Assembly: GCA_039630545.1 (NCBI GenBank)
Contig: JBCNUU010000002.1
Coordinates: 1 to 64,000, forward strand
Direction of reading: 5' to 3'
Origin: Endomicrobiia bacterium
Lineage (GTDB): Bacteria > Elusimicrobiota > Endomicrobiia > DTEH01
DNA length: 64,000 bases
Made by a program: the position numbers. Below, piece after piece: positions 1 through 33,000 of the stretch; within the stretch, counting starts at the first letter, position 1, and the number at the start of each line of letters is the position of its first letter.

Positions 1-3000
1 ACAACTATGTTATTACTTTAGATGAGTTGCCTGATTTAGAAGAATATCCCTATACAGAATCTACAACTACCTTTAAATATTATACTCTTAATATAATAAT
101 CAACCCTTCACAAGCAGGAACCGTAACAAGAACTCCGAACAAGACAGTGTTTTTAGAGAACTCAACTGTTACTCTTCAAGCAGTTGCTTTAAGTGGGTAT
201 ATTTTTTCAAACTGGGTTGTTGGCAGTAGTGTTTATACAACAAATCCTATTGTAATAACCATTACTACCAACACAACAGTGACTGCTAACTTTGTTAATA
301 TAACCACTACTCAGACATATATTCTTAATTTAGATATTTATCCTCAAGCAGCAGGGGTGATTTACTATAATCCAACTGGTGGTGTATACATTGCAGGCAC
401 AACTGTAACACTTACAGCGCAGGCAAACAGTGGTTATGTATTTAGTCACTGGAGTGGAGATGTAGGAGGCAGTCAGAATCCTGTAAGTATATTAATGGAT
501 GCAAACAAGACAGTTGTTGCGCATTTTAGTGTGAGTGTATCAACAGATAGTAAGCCTTTTATTGGTAGTATTAATTTATCAACAGGACAGATAGTATCTG
601 GTTTATATAATTTAGTTATTAGTTGTAGTGATGATATAGGGGTATCTAGAGTTGAGGTGTATATAGATGGTAGTTTAGTAGCAACTTTGACATCATCACC
701 TTATAGTTACACAATAGACACGAATAACTTATCTGATGGTAGTCACAATTTATTAGTAGTTGTTTACGACACATCAAATCAGACGCAGACAACAAGTATA
801 AACTTTACAGTGGATAATTCTGGTTCTTTAGATACTTTATTAAAAGATAATTATTTACTGACAGTTAATTCAGATGACAAAAATGAAGTAATAGATTTTG
901 GAGATGATATTGAATGGATAAAAATATATGGAATAAATGGAAAAGTAATTTACGAGTCTTCAGGTGATGTAAATCCAGCATTTACTTCTAAACCCGGCCT
1001 TTATATCTACAAAGCTAAACTTAAAAATGGGAAAATTTTTACAGGAAAAATTCTCGTTTTAAGATAAAAATTATACCTGATAAAATGTTCTTTTAATAAC
1101 ATAAAAACCTTAATTTTACATATTATTGACATAAATGTAATATTTTTGTAAATTTTAATATGTATATCTTAACTCCGGGGGAAAATAAAATAAATGGAAA
1201 GAAGAAAAGCAATAAGGGCCCCAATAAATATGATGTTAGATGTATATAAAAATGGCAAATTAGAAAATTCCTGGCGAGGTTGTGGTTTAGATTTGAGCTT
1301 AAAAGGTATCGCTATTGAAACAGAAGGAGAATTTGAAAAGAATGATGATATTTTAATAAAAATCAGCATTCCTATAGATGTTCAAGGAAAAATAGTCTGG
1401 GTTAAAAAAGAAGGTCAGCTTATAAATACGGAATAAAGTTTTCAAAAATTGGTTTTTTTGAAAAAATGCAGGTTAAGAAATATATTAAAGCAAGACTTCT
1501 TGGAAAATCTTCACAATAAGTTGATTTTTTAATTATTCTCTTTGACTAAATATATCTTACATTTTAAAATTTGAAATCCAGAAATGTTTCTATGGGGATA
1601 AAAAATATTATTTTAGTTTAAATACAACAAGTTAATACTTGTATAAATTATAAAATAATCCAAAAAGTAAAAATATGAAACACACAAAAAATAAAAAGCT
1701 ATACTTAAAAAAATTTTTAATATATTTATTATTTCAATTCTTCATATTTGTAAAATTTCTTTTTTCTCCACCAATCCCTGGTGCACCTCTTATTCGTCTA
1801 AACCAGGCTGGTTATTCAACTGATGACAACTACAAAACAGCAGTGGTATCTGGACTTTCTGGGACTTTCAGTGTTCATAGGTACAATACAGACGAAATGG
1901 TTTTCTCTGGAAACTTAAGTGCTTTAGGCACAGACAGTGTAACTTCTGAGATCTTATATCTTGCTGACTTTTCTGCAGTTAATACTCCTGGAGTTTACTA
2001 TCTCAAAGTTGGTTCTGAAGTTTCACCAAAGTTTGAAATAAGAGATGACCTATATAACAAGGTATTGTACTACACACTGAGAGTTTATGGAGCAAACAGG
2101 TGCGGTCCTTACCATTCCTGGATTCATAAACCCTGTCACACGAAAGATGGTATGATTCGTGGAAGTGGTAAAGAAGGCTCTCTTGCAGGAGGCTGGCATG
2201 ACTGTGGTGACCATGTAAAATTTGGACACACAGTTTTTTATGCTGCTTGTATGCTTTTGTTTGCATATAACAACTGGCCCAATAGATTTGGTGATGTTTA
2301 TGGGATGGAGTACAACGGTACTTACTATAACCCCAACCCTGATGGTATACCTGATGTATTAAATGAAGTTAAAGTTGTAACTGATTATTTATTAAATTTG
2401 TATAACGCTTCAGTTGAAGACGGTTTAATTTCACAAAACAGATTATACTATCAAGTGGGTGACGGAGACGATGATCATACCTGGTGGCACAAACCAGAAA
2501 ACCAGGATAACTTTCCTCAATCTCGTGGAGGTCAACCCAGGGAAGCATGGAGTGATATAGGTGCTGACTTAGCAGGAAGATTTTCTGCTTGTTTAGCAAT
2601 GATGGCTACAGCATACTATAAATTTGATATTGAATATGCCAATAAGTGTCTTGATGCTGCTAAGGTTGTTTATCAAATAGCCAAAAATGTATATGGACAG
2701 ACAGGGAAAAATACAGGTGGAAAAGGTTACTATAGCCCAGATAACCGTGCAGATGACGATATGGCTTTAGCTGCTTTAGAACTCTATAAGGCTACAGGAG
2801 ATTCATTTTATCTTAGAGAAACACAATACTGGATGTATAAAGAGCAAAAATGGCAGTTTTGTTCTTATTATGTTTTGAGTTTTCCTAATGTATTTGCGTT
2901 GGTGTTATACGATTACTACCCGTATGCTTCACCAGTAGATAATGCTCCAGGGGAAATAGACACAAAAGTTGTCACAAAAGATGAGTGTATTGAATGGTTA

Positions 3001-30000: not shown

Positions 30001-33000
30001 TCCAGCAGCAGCTTATGATCAAACAGGCACAGGTAAAGCAAATAAATAAAGTTTTTACACCTATTCAGAATTTAAGAACACAAGTAAGAGATATATTTGT
30101 TCCAAAAACACAGATAGCAGTAAAAGAAACCAAAATAAGAAGTGACTTTAGAGTTCCAATGCAACCTAAAACCCAAATTACTTCTCCTATAAGTGGTAGT
30201 ATAACAAGACCCACTTCACAACAAACAGGTACAAGAAACACTGAAGGAATGAATGTCCCCGGTAACTACTCAGATTCCGGAAGGCCTGACGGATCACCCT
30301 CTGGAACAGGAATTGGTGAACAGAAGGGAGGAACTACAGGACGTGGTGGTGGAACCGGAATAGGTTTTAATCCATTTGGAACTGGAACAGGCTCTGGAAA
30401 TCAAGGAAGTGGTCCTGGTGCTGGAAGAAGGGGATTAGGTGGAGGCTTATCTGGTACAGGAACAGGTCCCGGTAGCGGTCCTGGCATTTCTATTGCACCA
30501 GGTGGAGGACAGGGCACAGCAGTAGTTGGTTCAGCTGTTTCTTCTCAATCAGGTCCTGTAGTTACTAATGCTCCTTCAGCTATTGACACTACTTCAGTTG
30601 CTAACAGACAAGTCACATATAAACCAAACGCTCCAATTGGTTCACGAGAAAATCCTATAACTGAGATAAATATTCTTGTAGAATTTAATGGAGAGACTCT
30701 TTTTACACATGATTTTTATTTAGCTTATCCTGAAAATAGACTCTTAATAAGAAACGCAAGATTTGCCAGAAGTGAAGTAATCAGGTTAGGACCTTATGCT
30801 GTTCCACCGGAACAGTTTTTGTTTTATTGGCATATTACTGCTAACCAGTGGGGTTTAGATAGAGGAGTACCTTTGTACCAAACAATTTATACCACTGATG
30901 CCCAACAAGTTCGTATAAGGAAAGTTTCAGAAAATGTAATCCAATATAAACTAGAAGATATGCCTTTGGATGTGATTAGGCAAATGAATAATCCTAAAGA
31001 GCCAGATTATGATGATGTAATAATAACAATCGTATATAAAGGTGCAGCGCAATAAAAAACAACTAAAAGTTTTCTTTTTCTACAGTGTAAAGTTCTATTG
31101 GTTGTGTTTTTCCTCTAATGTTTACTGTAGATACAAATTTAAATTTAAATGTATTATCTGAAATTTTCTGCATAAGTTCTTTTGTTACCAAAAGTGGCAC
31201 ATTAAATTGTCTATTATAAAGCTGCATTCGTGAAGCTGTATTTACTGCATCTCCAACTATTGTAAATTCCATTCTTTCTTTATGTCCTATATTTCCAACT
31301 ATCACTTCACCTATATGAATCGTTATTCCTGCTTTTATTTCACTTAAATTTTGTTTTTTTCTTTCATTATTTAATATCTCAAGAGCATCAATAAATTCCA
31401 GTGCTGCCATTACCGCATTTTTTGGATCTTCTTTTTTTGTTTCAATTGTTCCAAAATGAGCAAGTATTGCATCCCCAATAAGCTTATCAATAATCCCTCC
31501 ATATTTTGTAATAGCATCAATTGCTATCGTAAAAAACTTATTTAAAGTAGATACAACATCTTCTGGTTTATTCTGTTCAGTAAATTTTGTAAATTCACGC
31601 ATATCAATGTAGAAGACAACCACTTCTTTTTTTATTCCTTTTAACTGATTCTGTTCTTTTAGGAGTTTATCTACCAATTTTTTGTCAATATATTTTCCGA
31701 ATATATCTTTTATTGTTTCTCTTTCTCTTAGCCCCCAGACCATCTGTTGCATTTTCATAGAAAGATTATATACTTCGTAAGAATTATGAAATATAGGAAC
31801 ACTTGTTTGAAGATTACCTCTGGATATTTCTTCTGCTACATTTGAAAGTAAATTTATAGGCTTAGTTAAAGTTTTAAGTGTAGTATAAACAAAAATTAAA
31901 GTAACAATAAGAAGTCCGAAGGAAATACTTACTATAGTTATTAATTCATTTTTTAAAGTAGCATATAAATATTTAGCTTGCTGTCCAAACTGGACCATGC
32001 CAAATTTTTTTTCATGTATAAATATTGGAATTCTTATTTCAGCTATATTAAGCTTTTCTTTTTTTTTATAAAAAGATAAAAGTTCAAACTTTGTTTTTTC
32101 CAAAAAATTTTTATGTTTTTTCAAAGAAAAAAAATACAAAGATATTTTGTTCTTTTTTAAGTCTTTTTCTTCTAAAACTGAGGGTTTGTAAGAAGAGTTT
32201 GGGTTAAGATAAAAATATATAATATTACCATTATTATCATATAAAGCAAAGTAATATATATCTTTATTTTTTTTAACCTCAGTAATTAAGTTTCTTATAG
32301 CTAAAAGATCTATTGTAGGATACACCGAAGATTTAATTTCTTCTATTAAATATTCGGTTTTAGTTTTTAGATTTAACAAAAGGTTATTTTTTATTATGTG
32401 ATAAATTATAAAAGTGAGTATGGAAGAGAATAATATCAAAGAGGCACTTACAATACTTATTAACTTAGTAGAAAAAGTATTTAATCTCATTTTTATTTTA
32501 TAATAAATTTTACTAACAAAATCAACAATTAATTTTCAGGGGGATAATTATGTAATAATCTATTGATTAGGTTTTCAAAAAATAGTAAAATAAAATTATG
32601 ATAGTATTAATCATAGATGATGATATAAATTTATGTAATATACTATCCGAGATATTAGAAAAAACTGGCTATACAAGCATAATCTCTAATAATTTTGAAG
32701 ATGCAGTAAATAAAATAAAAAAAGAAAATCCAGATGTAATTTTTCTTGATTTAAATCTACCTGATAAAAATGGATTAAATGCTTTGAAAGAAATAAAAAA
32801 TATTTGCGAAGAACTACCAGTAATAATAATAACTGGATACGCCACAGTAGAAAATGCAGTGGAAGCAATGAAAATGGGAGCTTTTGATTATCTGGTAAAA
32901 CCTCTGGATAAAGAAAAAATTACTCTCACTTTACAAAAAGCAATAAATATGAGAATGATTAAAAAAGAATTACATTTATTAAAGAATAAAATTGAAACAC

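What a model noticed while it worked through the whole genome (the two positions that open the first line are those of the whole stretch)
1..31055. Clostridial-type crystalline-cellulose enzyme set with T9SS-type sorting tails in a hot-spring Elusimicrobiota
This 1.6-Mb genome carries a full cellulolytic enzyme set: two GH48 cellobiohydrolases (g00434, g00629), nine GH9 (g00362, g00426, g00609, g00610, g00612, g00613, g00618, g00619, g01420), two GH8 (g00367, g00432), one GH44 (g00433), GH5 (g00110, g00436, g00627, g00631), a CBM3 and cellobiose phosphorylase GH94 (g00604), in two islands on C12 (1-31055 and 203754-254381) plus C6 and C1. The catalytic modules are closest to those of thermophilic Firmicutes, but no dockerin, cohesin or SLH domain is found; instead eight of these 19 enzymes (g00110, g00367, g00426, g00432, g00436, g00609, g00610, g00613) end in a ~85-aa T9SS-type C-terminal sorting domain, and the GH48 g00629 is followed by a 106 [...]
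Evidence so far: pfam.tsv/swissprot.tsv: GH48 g00434 44.8% id over 638 aa to A. thermocellus CelS; g00629 37% to T. stercorarium CelY; GH5 g00110 69% to Caldicellulosiruptor ManA; GH8 g00432 47% to R. josui CelB. relatives.tsv: Glyco_hydro_48 and Glyco_hydro_44 in 3 of 533 other Elusimicrobiota genomes, all 3 in this genus; Glyco_hydro_9 in 9 of 533 (4 in the genus); CBM_3 in 2 of 533. Iterated HMM of the C-terminal tail seeded from NCBIfam TIGR04183 hits finds 35 proteins, 32 with the tail within 15 residues of the C-terminus, 9 of them with a glycoside hydrolase domain. No Dockerin/Cohesin/SLH row in pfam.tsv. PorV/PorQ-family (g00370, g00457, g01311; NF033709 over cut) and PorP/SprF (g00438) present.
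(Added by a program. Inside this text positions count along the whole contig: contig position 1 is position 1 of the stretch shown here. "Call 12" and the like, gene names such as g00115 and contig names such as C1 are that model's own, and its searches are not shown. The text may have been shortened before it was handed on; [...] marks where a part breaks off. The agent that wrote the report below was given it as the finding of a first reader that could run no searches.)

Follow-up and report, generated by a model that had tools for sequence, protein, structure and literature searches.

The report
Cellulase island with secretion tails, Elusimicrobiota
A small hot-spring bacterium of the phylum Elusimicrobiota carries a borrowed set of cellulose-degrading enzymes, most of them fitted with the phylum's own C-terminal sorting tail, which resembles the type IX secretion signal of Bacteroidota although the usual motor of that system is missing.

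Summary
Window 1-31055 encodes, all on the + strand, GH9, a CBM4_9 protein, GH8, GH44, GH48 and GH5. It also encodes a giant fn3 protein, two outer-membrane barrels and an ECF sigma factor. The genome-wide census is confirmed with two corrections. The "nine GH9" are eight genes, one cut by an in-frame TGA. The second GH48 is separated from its tail by a frameshift. Contigs of three public runs remove both breaks.

About 30 proteins end in one ~75-aa Ig-like tail that matches type A and type B T9SS sorting domains. Eleven tail genes are followed directly by a PorV/PorP-family barrel gene.

New here: contig C12 also encodes a true but distant SprA translocon homologue. GldK, L, M, N and PorU were not found. 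SprA-like, PorV-like and tail genes occur across the phylum, while GH48 is confined to this genus. The likely history is that acquired catalytic modules were grafted onto a native, reduced T9SS-like surface-display route.

"Closest to thermophilic Firmicutes" is only partly right; the donors are unresolved. Activity is untested. A 2019 supplement lists GH48, GH8, GH9 and GH5 genes of a hot-spring Elusimicrobia genome as inactive in a cell-free assay.

This scan has noted the SprA-type pore in Elusimicrobiota before, on other genomes; the link to cellulases is new to it.

The parts
3..1067 (+). 5'-cut ORF (354 aa): Flg_new_2 + Big_7 + C-terminal tail. Probably the end of a further multidomain enzyme.
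   Evidence: Pfam. Tail HMM E 8.6e-16. In relative G057 the gene upstream of the orthologous GH9 is a GH9+fn3+CBM3+PKD+Big_7+CHU_C protein. The identity of the cut part here is inferred.
1675..4647 (+). GH9 endoglucanase (990 aa): signal-like N-terminus, CelD_N Ig, GH9, 3 Big_7, tail.
   Evidence: Pfam GH9 279.5 bits. TIGR04183 19.7 bits (cut-off 23). Tail HMM.
4644..5597 (+). Aldo-keto reductase (317 aa), 4-bp overlap with the GH9 gene.
   Evidence: Pfam 222.5 bits.
6558..10622 (+). 1354-aa secreted protein: weak GH5-mannanase-like N-terminal region, CBM4_9, Big_7, Flg_new_2, tail.
   Evidence: CHU_C 35.2, TIGR04183 23.4, TIGR04131 28. PDB phmmer: GH5 mannanases at E 5e-4 to 8e-3 for residues about 89-250, (weak).
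11075..15016 (+). GH8 endoglucanase (1313 aa) with 7 Big_7 and tail.
   Evidence: Pfam GH8 211.7 bits. Tail HMM.
15032..17149 (+). Divergent GH44 (705 aa) with a CIA30/CBM11-like N-terminal domain; no tail.
   Evidence: Pfam. PDB endoglucanase chain 2e0p E 1e-16.
17262..19163 (+). GH48 cellobiohydrolase-type enzyme (633 aa): signal-like N-terminus plus catalytic domain only; no CBM, no tail.
   Evidence: Pfam 662.3 bits over profile 1-619. The three orthologues at 92/80/78% identity also end without a tail and have no conserved Cys.
19160..20134 (+). Divergent PorV/PorP-family outer-membrane barrel (324 aa), 4-bp overlap with the GH48 stop, 29 bp upstream of the GH5 gene.
   Evidence: hhalign against barrel alignment A5: probability 98.1, E 1.2e-13, 268 columns. 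Ends in F.
20163..22511 (+). GH5 endoglucanase (782 aa) with Big_7 and tail.
   Evidence: Pfam 156.7 bits. Tail HMM E 2.1e-19.
22601..27265 (+). 1554-aa fn3-rich surface protein with tail.
   Evidence: Paralogues elsewhere in the genome.
27267..28691 (+). PorP/PorV-family barrel (474 aa) with an internal tail-like Ig domain and a C-terminal zinc ribbon; starts 2 bp after the 1554-aa gene.
   Evidence: PF11751 33 bits (cut-off 22.3). NF033709 55.4 bits (cut-off 90). Tail HMM at residues 357-427.
28769..29362 (+). ECF-type sigma factor.
29412..31055 (+). 547-aa protein of no family; possible anti-sigma partner (inferred from position and a Cys-rich N-terminus only).
   Evidence: No Pfam or NCBIfam hit. 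N-terminus printed.
54296..54808 (+). 170-aa protein that is little more than a tail; outside the finding's range but part of the same sorting system.
   Evidence: Por_Secre_tail 24.4, CHU_C 21.1. Tail HMM.
54805..56379 (+). PorV-family barrel + TPR (524 aa), 4-bp overlap with the tail gene.
   Evidence: NF033709 96 bits, over the cut-off. TPR.

Best explanation
The island is one of several gene clusters that give this Elusimicrobiota genus a complete route for crystalline cellulose.

Enzymes and uptake:
- GH48 processive enzymes.
- GH9 enzymes, one with a CBM3.
- GH8, GH5 and GH44 endoglucanases.
- A sugar ABC transporter and a GH94 cellobiose phosphorylase.

The catalytic modules came into the genus by horizontal transfer from unresolved donors. 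Most of them were joined to modules native to the phylum: Big_7 or Flg_new_2 spacers and a ~75-aa C-terminal Ig-like tail.

Proposed route:
1. The enzymes cross the inner membrane by Sec, judged from their signal-like N-termini.
2. The tail directs them through a SprA-like outer-membrane translocon, helped by PorV/PorP-family barrels.
3. No PorU-type sortase is present, so they probably stay on the cell surface, held non-covalently by such barrels. Several barrels are fused to wall-binding OmpA or LysM domains. Type B cargo on PorP-like proteins in Bacteroidota works this way.

The result would be a cell-bound cellulase coat without a cellosome.

Shown here: the genes, the domains, the homologies, the gene adjacency and the phyletic patterns. 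Inferred: secretion through the SprA-like pore, anchoring on the barrels, enzyme activity, and what energises the route, since the GldLM motor was not found.
For: Enzyme set.

Tails:
- 32 ORFs carry the tail and 30 of them carry it at the C-terminus.
- The carriers are unrelated proteins: GH5/8/9, GH16+GH114, M6 peptidases, a PLD-like protein, fn3 giants, a beta-helix protein.
- Scanned alone, 20 of 27 tails match TIGR04183 and 9 of 27 match TIGR04131 at E <= 0.01. For Pfam, 19 of 27 match CHU_C and 16 of 27 match Por_Secre_tail.
- The AF2 model has pLDDT 93.6. T9SS CTDs in complex with SprA (8gl8_D at rank 8, 8gl6_D at rank 11), PorZ and PorU are among the Foldseek hits.

Barrels: 11 of 30 tail genes have a PorV/PorP-family barrel gene directly downstream, often with a 4-bp overlap. 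About 0.4 are expected by chance; binomial P 9e-14.

SprA homologue, C12:74846-80047:
- Three collinear TIGR04189 matches.
- A profile of 28 homologues hits F. johnsoniae SprA 6h3i_A at E 2.9e-63 over profile positions 129-1372.

The route is native to the phylum:
- SprA-like in 360 of 401 genomes.
- PorV_fam in 117 of 121.
- Tail in 89 of 101.

The enzymes are acquired:
- GH48 in 4 of 401 genomes and GH9 in 10 of 401.
- GC3 of the window's GH genes lies at the 91st-97th percentile of 840 ORFs.
- The same GH5 module carries a CBM3 in Caldicellulosiruptor, but Flg_new_2 plus tail here and in MAG relatives.
- Genus member G057 has only the two GH9 genes at this locus.

Literature:
- Type B cargo anchors on PorP-like proteins independently of PorU and PorV (PMC9143113, abstract).
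- An Elusimicrobia population was enriched about 500x on cellulose particles from a hot spring (PMC7031533, passages).
Against: - No GldK, L, M or N in this genome or in two congeners. GldM was found in 0 of 151 phylum genomes. The known energy source and ring of the T9SS are therefore missing.
- In full-length proteins most tails score below the curated cut-offs.
- The Ig-like fold is generic. The top Foldseek hits are Fn3-type domains of streptococcal peptidases, at E values like those of the T9SS CTDs.
- GH48a and GH44 have no tail.
- The cellulase genes themselves are mostly not next to a barrel gene.
- A secretin is present, so another export route exists.
- Doud et al. 2019, supplementary file 4, lists GH1, GH8, CelD_N, GH48 and GH5 genes of a hot-spring 'Elusimicrobia' genome as GH_inactive. 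That assay was cell-free and used cellotetraose and xylotetraose; only 16 of 70 candidates scored active.
- No RNA run holds the locus.
Confidence: 0.6

Rival explanations
1. The tails are ordinary Ig-like spacer or adhesion domains and not sorting signals. The enzymes leave the cell by the secretin-based pathway, by vesicles or by lysis. The SprA-like pore and the barrels serve other cargo.
For: - Scores are sub-threshold in full-length proteins.
- The fold is generic.
- A secretin is present.
- No GldKLMN or PorU.
- GH48a and GH44 lack tails.
Against: - The position is strictly C-terminal in 30 of 32 ORFs, ending in K/R after a conserved G-x-Y motif.
- The same tail sits on functionally unrelated secreted proteins.
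- Tail genes lie next to barrel genes far above chance.
- Tails scanned alone match the type A and type B T9SS models.
Confidence: 0.2
2. The enzyme set does not feed on plant cellulose. It remodels the cell's own or neighbours' beta-glucan matrix in a biofilm, or it works in the periplasm on imported cellodextrins liberated by other organisms such as the co-sorted Goldbacteria.
For: - The best NCBIfam names for GH8 and GH44 are BcsZ and EpsB, both far below cut-off.
- Two GGDEF genes sit in island 2.
- GH48a and GH44 have no tail.
- Published Elusimicrobia GHs were inactive in one assay.
- Published co-occurrence with a cellulolytic Goldbacterium on 15 of 19 particles.
Against: - GH48 plus GH9-CBM3, with CBM4_9, CBM9 and CBM11 modules, is the signature of crystalline-cellulose degraders. 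That reading rests on established knowledge of these families.
- GH94 and a sugar ABC transporter lie next to the GH9 genes.
- Most of the enzymes carry surface-sorting tails.
Confidence: 0.15
3. The cellulase contigs are binning contaminants from another hot-spring organism such as Bacteroidota, Ignavibacteria or Goldbacteria.
For: - The genome is a draft of 82 contigs.
- The GC of the island is a little raised.
- A GH5 relative is labelled WOR-3 and another Woesearchaeota in public MAGs.
Against: - Both islands lie on the 254-kb contig C12. That contig also carries SmpB, HisRS, LptFG and the SprA-like gene, whose relatives are 65-77% identical and, where they carry a name, are labelled Endomicrobia.
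- Contamination is 0.17%.
- The same gene order is found in genus member G185.
- Single contigs of the runs bridge long parts of island 2 (table 8).
Confidence: 0.03

Closest known systems
T9SS-secreted, cell-bound cellulases of Bacteroidota (Cytophaga hutchinsonii; 'Candidatus Paraporphyromonas polyenzymogenes')
   Same: Multi-modular GH5/GH9-type cellulases end in a T9SS C-terminal domain. There is no cellulosome. Cell-contact cellulose degradation depends on SprA and PorV (abstracts of PMC7906972, PMC8564354, PMC11611037, PMC5831590).
   Different: - Different phylum, outside the group to which these abstracts confine the T9SS.
- No GldKLMN or PorU detected here.
- The SprA homologue is shorter: 1733 aa against 2403 for chain 6h3i_A.
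- GH48 is present. C. hutchinsonii is recalled to lack GH48; this was not tested here.
Type B CTD cargo with a cognate PorP/SprF-like barrel (SprB-SprF, PG1035-PorP-PorE)
   Same: - A cargo gene is followed by its own barrel gene.
- The cellulase tails carry a degenerate form of the type B motif and match TIGR04131/CHU_C.
[quoted passage not shown]
- The wall-binding partner PorE is mirrored here by OmpA and LysM domains fused to barrels.
   Different: - Binding was not tested here.
- Many tails match type A better.
- Most cellulase genes are not adjacent to a barrel gene.
- The barrels are fused to extra domains: TPR, zinc ribbon, an Ig domain.
Clostridial cellulase systems (Acetivibrio thermocellus CelS/Cel48S with GH9, GH8, GH5, GH44; Caldicellulosiruptor free multidomain enzymes)
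   Same: The repertoire of catalytic families is the same, including GH48 and GH9-CBM3. One GH5 module is 68% identical to a Caldicellulosiruptor kronotskyensis enzyme.
   Different: - No dockerin, cohesin or SLH.
- GH48 is only 42-44% identical to named Clostridia. Both copies fall in a separate, well-supported clade of unnamed metagenome proteins.
- The cell has an outer membrane, so it needs an outer-membrane route.
Elusimicrobia single-cell genomes from cellulose particles of Great Boiling Spring (Doud et al. 2019, PMC7031533)
   Same: - Hot-spring Elusimicrobia bound to cellulose.
- Supplementary file 4 lists GH8, CelD_N, GH48 and GH5+List_Bact_rpt genes, and a CIA30/CHU_C/CBM11 protein. 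These are the same families and architectures as here.
   Different: - The paper's text says Elusimicrobia largely lack cellulase machinery and may bind but not degrade cellulose.
- It gives no account of tails, barrels or SprA.
- Whether those genomes belong to this genus was not tested.

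Membership tests
Type IX secretion system (Bacteroidota T9SS) | SprA/Sov outer-membrane translocon | tested here: met
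   The 1733-aa ORF at C12:74846-80047 gives TIGR04189 matches of 45.1, 41.5 and 19.9 bits. They are collinear but below the cut-off of 200. A profile of 28 homologues against PDB hits SprA 6h3i_A at E 2.9e-63, 217 bits. The relationship is distant and the protein is shorter.
Type IX secretion system (Bacteroidota T9SS) | C-terminal sorting domains (type A TIGR04183, type B TIGR04131) on cargo | tested here: met
   30 ORFs carry the tail at the C-terminus. Of 27 tails scanned alone, 20 match TIGR04183 and 9 match TIGR04131 at E <= 0.01. In full-length proteins the scores are mostly below cut-off.
Type IX secretion system (Bacteroidota T9SS) | PorV shuttle and PorP/SprF-like barrels | tested here: met
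   NF033709 gives 15 places, 3 over the cut-off. PF11751 is over its cut-off for 27267-28691. The PorV equivalog model itself was not run.
Type IX secretion system (Bacteroidota T9SS) | GldK/PorK, GldL/PorL, GldM/PorM, GldN/PorN (motor and ring) | tested here: not met
   No match for TIGR03525, TIGR03513, TIGR03517 or TIGR03523 in G000. No match for GldL, GldM or GldN in G067 and G057, while Fulvivirga scored 274, 374 and 114 bits. GldM was found in 0 of 151 phylum genomes. Very divergent analogues cannot be excluded.
Type IX secretion system (Bacteroidota T9SS) | PorU sortase that removes the CTD and links cargo to A-LPS | tested here: not met
   NF033707 matched only its last ~220 positions (876-1092), i.e. 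tail-like domains of 19 ORFs. There was no match to the peptidase part.
Type B CTD cargo / PorP-like carrier pair | Cargo gene next to a cognate barrel gene | tested here: met
   11 of 30 tail genes have a barrel gene directly downstream, P 9e-14. In the window the pairs are 22601-27265 with 27267-28691, and 54296-54808 with 54805-56379.
Type B CTD cargo / PorP-like carrier pair | Physical binding of the tail to the barrel | not testable with these tools
Cellulosome | Dockerin on enzymes, cohesin on a scaffoldin, SLH anchor | tested here: not met
   PF00404, PF00963 and PF00395 each gave 0 of 8 genus genomes, and the controls rang.
GH48 | Full-length match to the family model | tested here: met
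   662.3 bits over profile 1-619. The second copy scores 491 bits. The catalytic residues were not inspected.
GH9 / GH8 / GH5 / GH44 / GH94 | Match over Pfam's gathering score | tested here: met
   The GH44 match is partial (profile 93-221 of 223), with PDB support at E 1e-16.
Active cellulase system | Hydrolysis of crystalline cellulose | not testable with these tools
Related Elusimicrobia genes were 'GH_inactive' on tetraose substrates in one published cell-free screen.

The most novel reading that the evidence does not exclude
Elusimicrobiota, and by the hit list also Firestonebacteria, run a phylum-wide secretion and surface-anchoring pathway. It consists of a compact SprA-type pore, many PorV/PorP-type barrels and T9SS-like tails, and it works without the GldKLMN motor and without the PorU sortase. 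The outer half of 'type IX' secretion would then be older or wider than the FCB group, and could be powered differently. One candidate is an ExbB-ExbD-type unit like the one next to a PorP-like barrel on contig C6. Another is the FliG-like protein next to a barrel in the window. In this hot-spring genus the pathway would have been co-opted to display a horizontally acquired GH48/GH9 cellulase coat. That would make these bacteria primary cellulose degraders, not the by-standers proposed for cellulose-bound Elusimicrobia in 2019.
Probability: 0.4. Interest if true: 0.85.

Novelty: new variant of a known kind. Interest (0 to 1): 0.68.

Why it matters
Three points.

1. It would add a phylum to the short list of bacteria with a GH48-based machinery for crystalline cellulose. 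It would also offer a different reading of a published puzzle: Elusimicrobia were strongly enriched on cellulose particles, yet were judged unable to degrade them. Whether those cells belong to this genus was not tested.

2. It shows how a small genome (1.6 Mb) can adopt a complex trait. Foreign catalytic modules were fused to the host's own spacer and sorting modules. The same GH5 module carries a CBM3 in Caldicellulosiruptor and a sorting tail here.

3. The abstracts I saw call type IX secretion confined to Bacteroidetes or the FCB group. A working SprA/PorV/tail route without GldKLMN would change how that system's origin and energy coupling are understood. It would also offer thermostable surface-display parts.

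Tried and rejected
Not repeated, because the PDB profile search answered the question.
- phmmer of the single SprA-like protein against PDB: no hit at E <= 1. Only the profile reached SprA.
- IQ-TREE 'quick' of 62 GH48 rows did not finish. FastTree was used instead, so support is local SH-like only and the root is the midpoint.
- Naming the nearest GH48 relatives: the listing of cluster members gave no organism names for 9 of the 10 clusters asked. The only name was Anaerocolumna jejuensis, for P0020. The genome-contig scan gave only 39-44% identical species genomes. The donor stays unknown.
- GH48a as a lipoprotein: rejected. The Cys in its signal-like region is not conserved in the three orthologues.
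- Insertion-site comparison with GH48-less congeners: the sigma-54 activator at the right flank has only 45-48% identical matches in G073 and G135, which are probably paralogues. The right boundary could not be compared. The left boundary is lost at the contig end, here and in G185.
- Expression: no RNA holder is listed for the locus.
- Literature searches for T9SS, SprA or PorV in Elusimicrobia found no paper that makes the link. Searches for GH48 or cellulolysis in Elusimicrobia found only Doud et al. with relevant content.
- Whether this genus is the published GBS-CoSAG_05 lineage was not tested.

Full report
**What is in the window.** From position 1 to 31055 every long ORF lies on the + strand.

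Pfam and NCBIfam give the following genes:
- A 5'-cut ORF ending in Flg_new_2, Big_7 and a tail (3-1067).
- A GH9 with CelD_N and three Big_7 (1675-4647).
- An aldo-keto reductase (4644-5597).
- A 1354-aa protein with CBM4_9 and a CHU_C match over Pfam's cut-off (6558-10622).
- A GH8 with seven Big_7 (11075-15016).
- A divergent GH44 (15032-17149). PDB endoglucanase chain 2e0p matches it at E 1e-16.
- A GH48 made of a signal-like N-terminus and the catalytic domain only (17262-19163; 662 bits).
- A 324-aa ORF (19160-20134).
- A GH5 (20163-22511).
- A 1554-aa fn3 protein (22601-27265).
- A PorP/PorV-like barrel (27267-28691).
- An ECF sigma factor (28769-29362).
- A 547-aa protein of no family (29412-31055).

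The 324-aa ORF is a divergent member of the same barrel family (hhalign probability 98.1, E 1.2e-13).

All of these proteins begin with a short basic stretch followed by a hydrophobic stretch. No signal-peptide predictor was run.

**The genome-wide set.** The genome has 1,604,573 bases in 82 contigs, is 95.5% complete and has about 29% GC.

- Two GH48.
- Two GH8.
- One GH44.
- Four GH5.
- A CBM3 on a 1191-aa GH9.
- GH94 next to an ABC sugar transporter.

Two corrections are needed.
- The nine GH9 ORFs are eight genes. C12:232936-233853 and 233953-236082 share one frame and are separated by a single TGA. That codon reads TGG in the contigs of all three public runs that hold this DNA.
- The 106-aa tail ORF after the second GH48 is separated from it by a frameshift in this assembly. 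Relatives 43-45% identical to the window's GH48, one of them 88% identical to this second GH48, are single ORFs of about 1090 aa ending in the tail. In the three runs' contigs, indels of -2, +1 and -1 at the junction put the tail into the GH48 frame.

Neither break is therefore safe evidence of decay.

Dockerin, cohesin and SLH were found in 0 of 8 genus genomes, and the controls rang.

**The tails.** An HMM seeded from six window tails and iterated on all ORFs of 70 aa or more found 32 ORFs. In 30 of them the domain ends within 15 residues of the C-terminus.

An alignment of 27 tails shows:
- A strand around I-K-I-Y-D-x-x-G.
- W-D/N-G-K.
- An invariant G-x-Y.
- A last strand that ends in K or R.

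The cellulase tails begin with a degenerate form of what I recall as the type B hallmark (T-P-N-x-D-G-I-N-D-x-x-x-F; from memory, no call). It is clearest in the tail of the second GH48. Several non-cellulase tails begin with N-P-F instead.

Inside full-length proteins the curated models score them mostly below cut-off. Scanned alone at E <= 0.01, of 27 tails:
- 20 match TIGR04183 (type A) and 9 match TIGR04131 (type B).
- 19 match CHU_C, 16 match Por_Secre_tail and 15 match FlgD_ig.

AlphaFold2 on the alignment gives a confident beta-sandwich (pLDDT 93.6). Foldseek against PDB ranks streptococcal peptidase Fn3-type domains first (E 7e-4). T9SS tails bound in the SprA complex follow (8gl8_D at rank 8 with 24% identity; 8gl6_D at rank 11), then PorZ and PorU at ranks 12-13. 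This is consistent with a T9SS tail but is not diagnostic on its own.

The tail sits on unrelated cargo: GH5, GH8, GH9, a GH114+GH16 protein, two M6 peptidases, a PLD-like protein, fn3 giants and a beta-helix protein.

**The machinery.**

PorV/PorQ-family matches lie at 15 places, 3 of them over NCBIfam's cut-off. jackhmmer finds 15 barrels.

Eleven of the 30 tail genes are followed directly by a barrel gene, often with a 4-bp overlap. Two more have a barrel directly upstream. With 18 barrels among about 1370 genes, 0.4 downstream pairs are expected; P is 9e-14.

Barrels are fused to:
- OmpA (C1) and LysM (C56).
- TPR (window 54805).
- A tail-like Ig domain plus a zinc ribbon (window 27267).

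A search with the SprA model gave three weak, collinear matches in one 1733-aa ORF at C12:74846-80047, just outside the window. It has no Pfam hit and no single-sequence PDB hit. Its 95 homologues, where named, are 'hypothetical proteins' of Elusimicrobia, Endomicrobia and Firestonebacteria. A profile of 28 of them hits F. johnsoniae SprA at E 2.9e-63 over profile positions 129-1372.

GldK, GldL, GldM and GldN were not found in this genome. GldL, GldM and GldN were not found in G067 or G057, while Fulvivirga gave 274, 374 and 114 bits. GldM was found in 0 of 151 phylum genomes.

The PorU model matched only through its own C-terminal tail-like part.

The canonical T9SS is therefore not present. 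Its outer-membrane half is.

**Native route, foreign enzymes.**

Across the phylum:
- The SprA-like gene is in 360 of 401 genomes, and in 284 of 293 good ones. It is missing mainly from one genus of very small genomes.
- PorV_fam is in 117 of 121 genomes.
- The tail is in 89 of 101 genomes.

By contrast:
- GH48 is in 4 of 401 genomes, all in this genus (3 of its 7 other species).
- GH9 is in 10 of 401.

GC3 of the window's GH genes is 0.227-0.254, the 91st-97th percentile of 840 long ORFs. The flanking genes and the GH9 genes of island 2 are ordinary.

Genus member G185 has the same gene order from the reductase to SmpB. G057 has two tandem GH9 genes followed by housekeeping genes, with no GH8-GH44-GH48-GH5 block.

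**Donors.**

The window's GH48 has relatives at 92, 80 and 78% identity; the first is named Elusimicrobiota. The next relatives are unnamed metagenome proteins at 47-50%, some with CBM3 or dockerin. CelS of Acetivibrio is at 44%. No species genome outside the genus exceeds 44%.

In a FastTree of 62 rows both own GH48 copies fall in one 16-row clade (support 100). That clade contains only unnamed metagenome proteins and the Elusimicrobiota MAG protein. It stands apart from named Clostridia, Bacteroidota, Actinomycetota and others. The tree has no rooting and no bootstrap.

The GH5 on C1 is:
- 87% identical to a MAG protein labelled WOR-3.
- 75% identical to one labelled Elusimicrobiota, with the same Flg_new_2-plus-tail architecture.
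- 68% identical to a Caldicellulosiruptor kronotskyensis enzyme that carries CBM3 instead.

So the repertoire is clostridial in type and at least one module circulates among thermophiles, but the direction of transfer and the donors are open.

**How it most likely works.**
1. Sec export.
2. Passage of tailed enzymes through the SprA-like pore with PorV/PorP-like barrels.
3. Retention on the surface by tail-barrel binding. There is no sortase, and type B cargo in Bacteroidota is anchored this way (PMC9143113, abstract).
4. Attack on cellulose by GH48, the GH9-CBM3 enzyme and the endoglucanases.
5. Uptake of cellodextrins and phosphorolysis by GH94.

GH48a and GH44 have no tail. They may act in the periplasm, use the secretin route or ride on partners. 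GH48a's 4-bp overlap with a barrel gene is unexplained.

What powers the route is unknown. Two leads:
- On C6 the gene order is TPR, ExbB, ExbD, ExbD, then a PorP-like barrel with a Pro/Gln/Glu-rich extension.
- In the window a FliG-like TPR protein follows a barrel.

**What is in print.**

The abstracts I saw call the T9SS confined to Bacteroidetes (PMC11611037, PMC7906972, PMC8564354, PMC7463736), or describe it as discovered in the FCB superphylum (PMC12398890, highlights).

T9SS-linked cellulases are described for C. hutchinsonii and Ca. Paraporphyromonas polyenzymogenes.

Four searches found no paper linking T9SS, SprA or PorV with Elusimicrobia.

For Doud et al. 2019 (PMC7031533) I read passages, section 8 and supplementary file 4:
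- They found Elusimicrobia enriched about 500x on cellulose particles from a hot spring.
- They wrote that Elusimicrobia largely lacked cellulase machinery and may bind but not degrade cellulose.
- Their supplementary file 4 nevertheless lists GH1, GH8, CelD_N, GH48 and GH5+List_Bact_rpt genes for one 'Elusimicrobia' genome. For CoSAG_05 it lists CBM11 proteins and one CIA30/CHU_C/CBM11 protein. All are marked GH_inactive.
- The assay was cell-free and used cellotetraose and xylotetraose. It scored 16 of 70 candidates active.

The genes are thus on record. Their completeness, the tails and the machinery are not discussed. I did not test whether those genomes belong to this genus. I did not open Supplementary Fig. 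5 of that paper (CAZyme counts).

**Habitat and expression.** Three runs (one study, two samples) labelled hot springs metagenome hold 95-96% of the sampled words of 15032-22511. They may be the source, so this confirms the label and gives no independent occurrence.

**Earlier notes of this scan.** Two notes on this genome describe barrel-plus-giant-adhesin modules. About 20 notes on other genomes describe the SprA-type pore in Elusimicrobiota without a motor. I reached the same result independently here.

**Verdict.** The finding is real and well described. Its interpretation needs narrowing in three ways: the outer half of a T9SS only, donors unresolved, activity untested with one published negative screen. 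It is a new variant of a known kind.

Noticed in passing
window 54296-64000 (operon runs on to C12:65569): The gene order is: 170-aa tail-only protein, PorV-family barrel+TPR, a 631-aa protein with FliG_M/FliG_C domains plus TPR, a 1603-aa protein, an 810-aa protein of no family. This is a FliG-like protein in a gene set without other flagellar genes nearby. It resembles the 'rotor-stator' operons that earlier scan notes describe in other Elusimicrobiota. MotA/MotB were not seen next to it here.
   Followed up: partly
G000 contig C6:16577-22453 (L136 16577-19978): The order is TPR protein, ExbB (MotA_ExbB 92.6 bits), two ExbD-like ORFs, then 5 bp later a PorP-like barrel with a long Pro/Gln/Glu-rich C-terminal extension. 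All of this lies inside a 26-kb contig that mixes tail proteins, barrels, GH8 and GH9. It is a candidate energy source for the motor-less route.
   Followed up: partly
window 27267-28691: An outer-membrane barrel carries an internal copy of the tail-like Ig domain (residues 357-427) and ends in a zinc-ribbon motif. That motif is odd for a protein expected outside the cytoplasm.
   Followed up: no
window 17262-20134: The tail-less GH48 overlaps the start of a barrel gene by 4 bp. Elsewhere this arrangement is typical of tail-cargo/barrel pairs. No explanation was found.
   Followed up: partly
window 35075-47017: A Bat-like operon (DUF58, BatA+VWA, DUF4159, GATase1-like) is followed by three tandem paralogues of TMEM260-like/TPR putative protein O-mannosyltransferases. 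T9SS cargo glycosylation is known in Bacteroidota (abstract listing). The link is speculative.
   Followed up: no
protein P0008: A metagenome GH48, 47% identical to the window's, carries precomputed Pfam hits for both a dockerin and a Por_Secre_tail in one 808-aa protein.
   Followed up: no
proteins P0244 and P0259: Close relatives (87% and 76%) of the C1 GH5 sit in MAGs labelled WOR-3 and Woesearchaeota. This is either transfer among hot-spring lineages or mis-binning.
   Followed up: no
L152 19574-19705 (C12:252574-252705): At the GH48b/tail junction the three runs' contigs differ from the assembly by a dense cluster of substitutions and indels, and X2 differs from X1 and X3. This suggests strain variation or a consensus built from several strains.
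   Followed up: partly
window 1-32000 versus 32000-64000: GC is 0.27-0.38 in the island against 0.22-0.30 in the rest of the window. GC3 shows the same for the island's GH genes, but not for the GH9 genes of island 2.
   Followed up: yes
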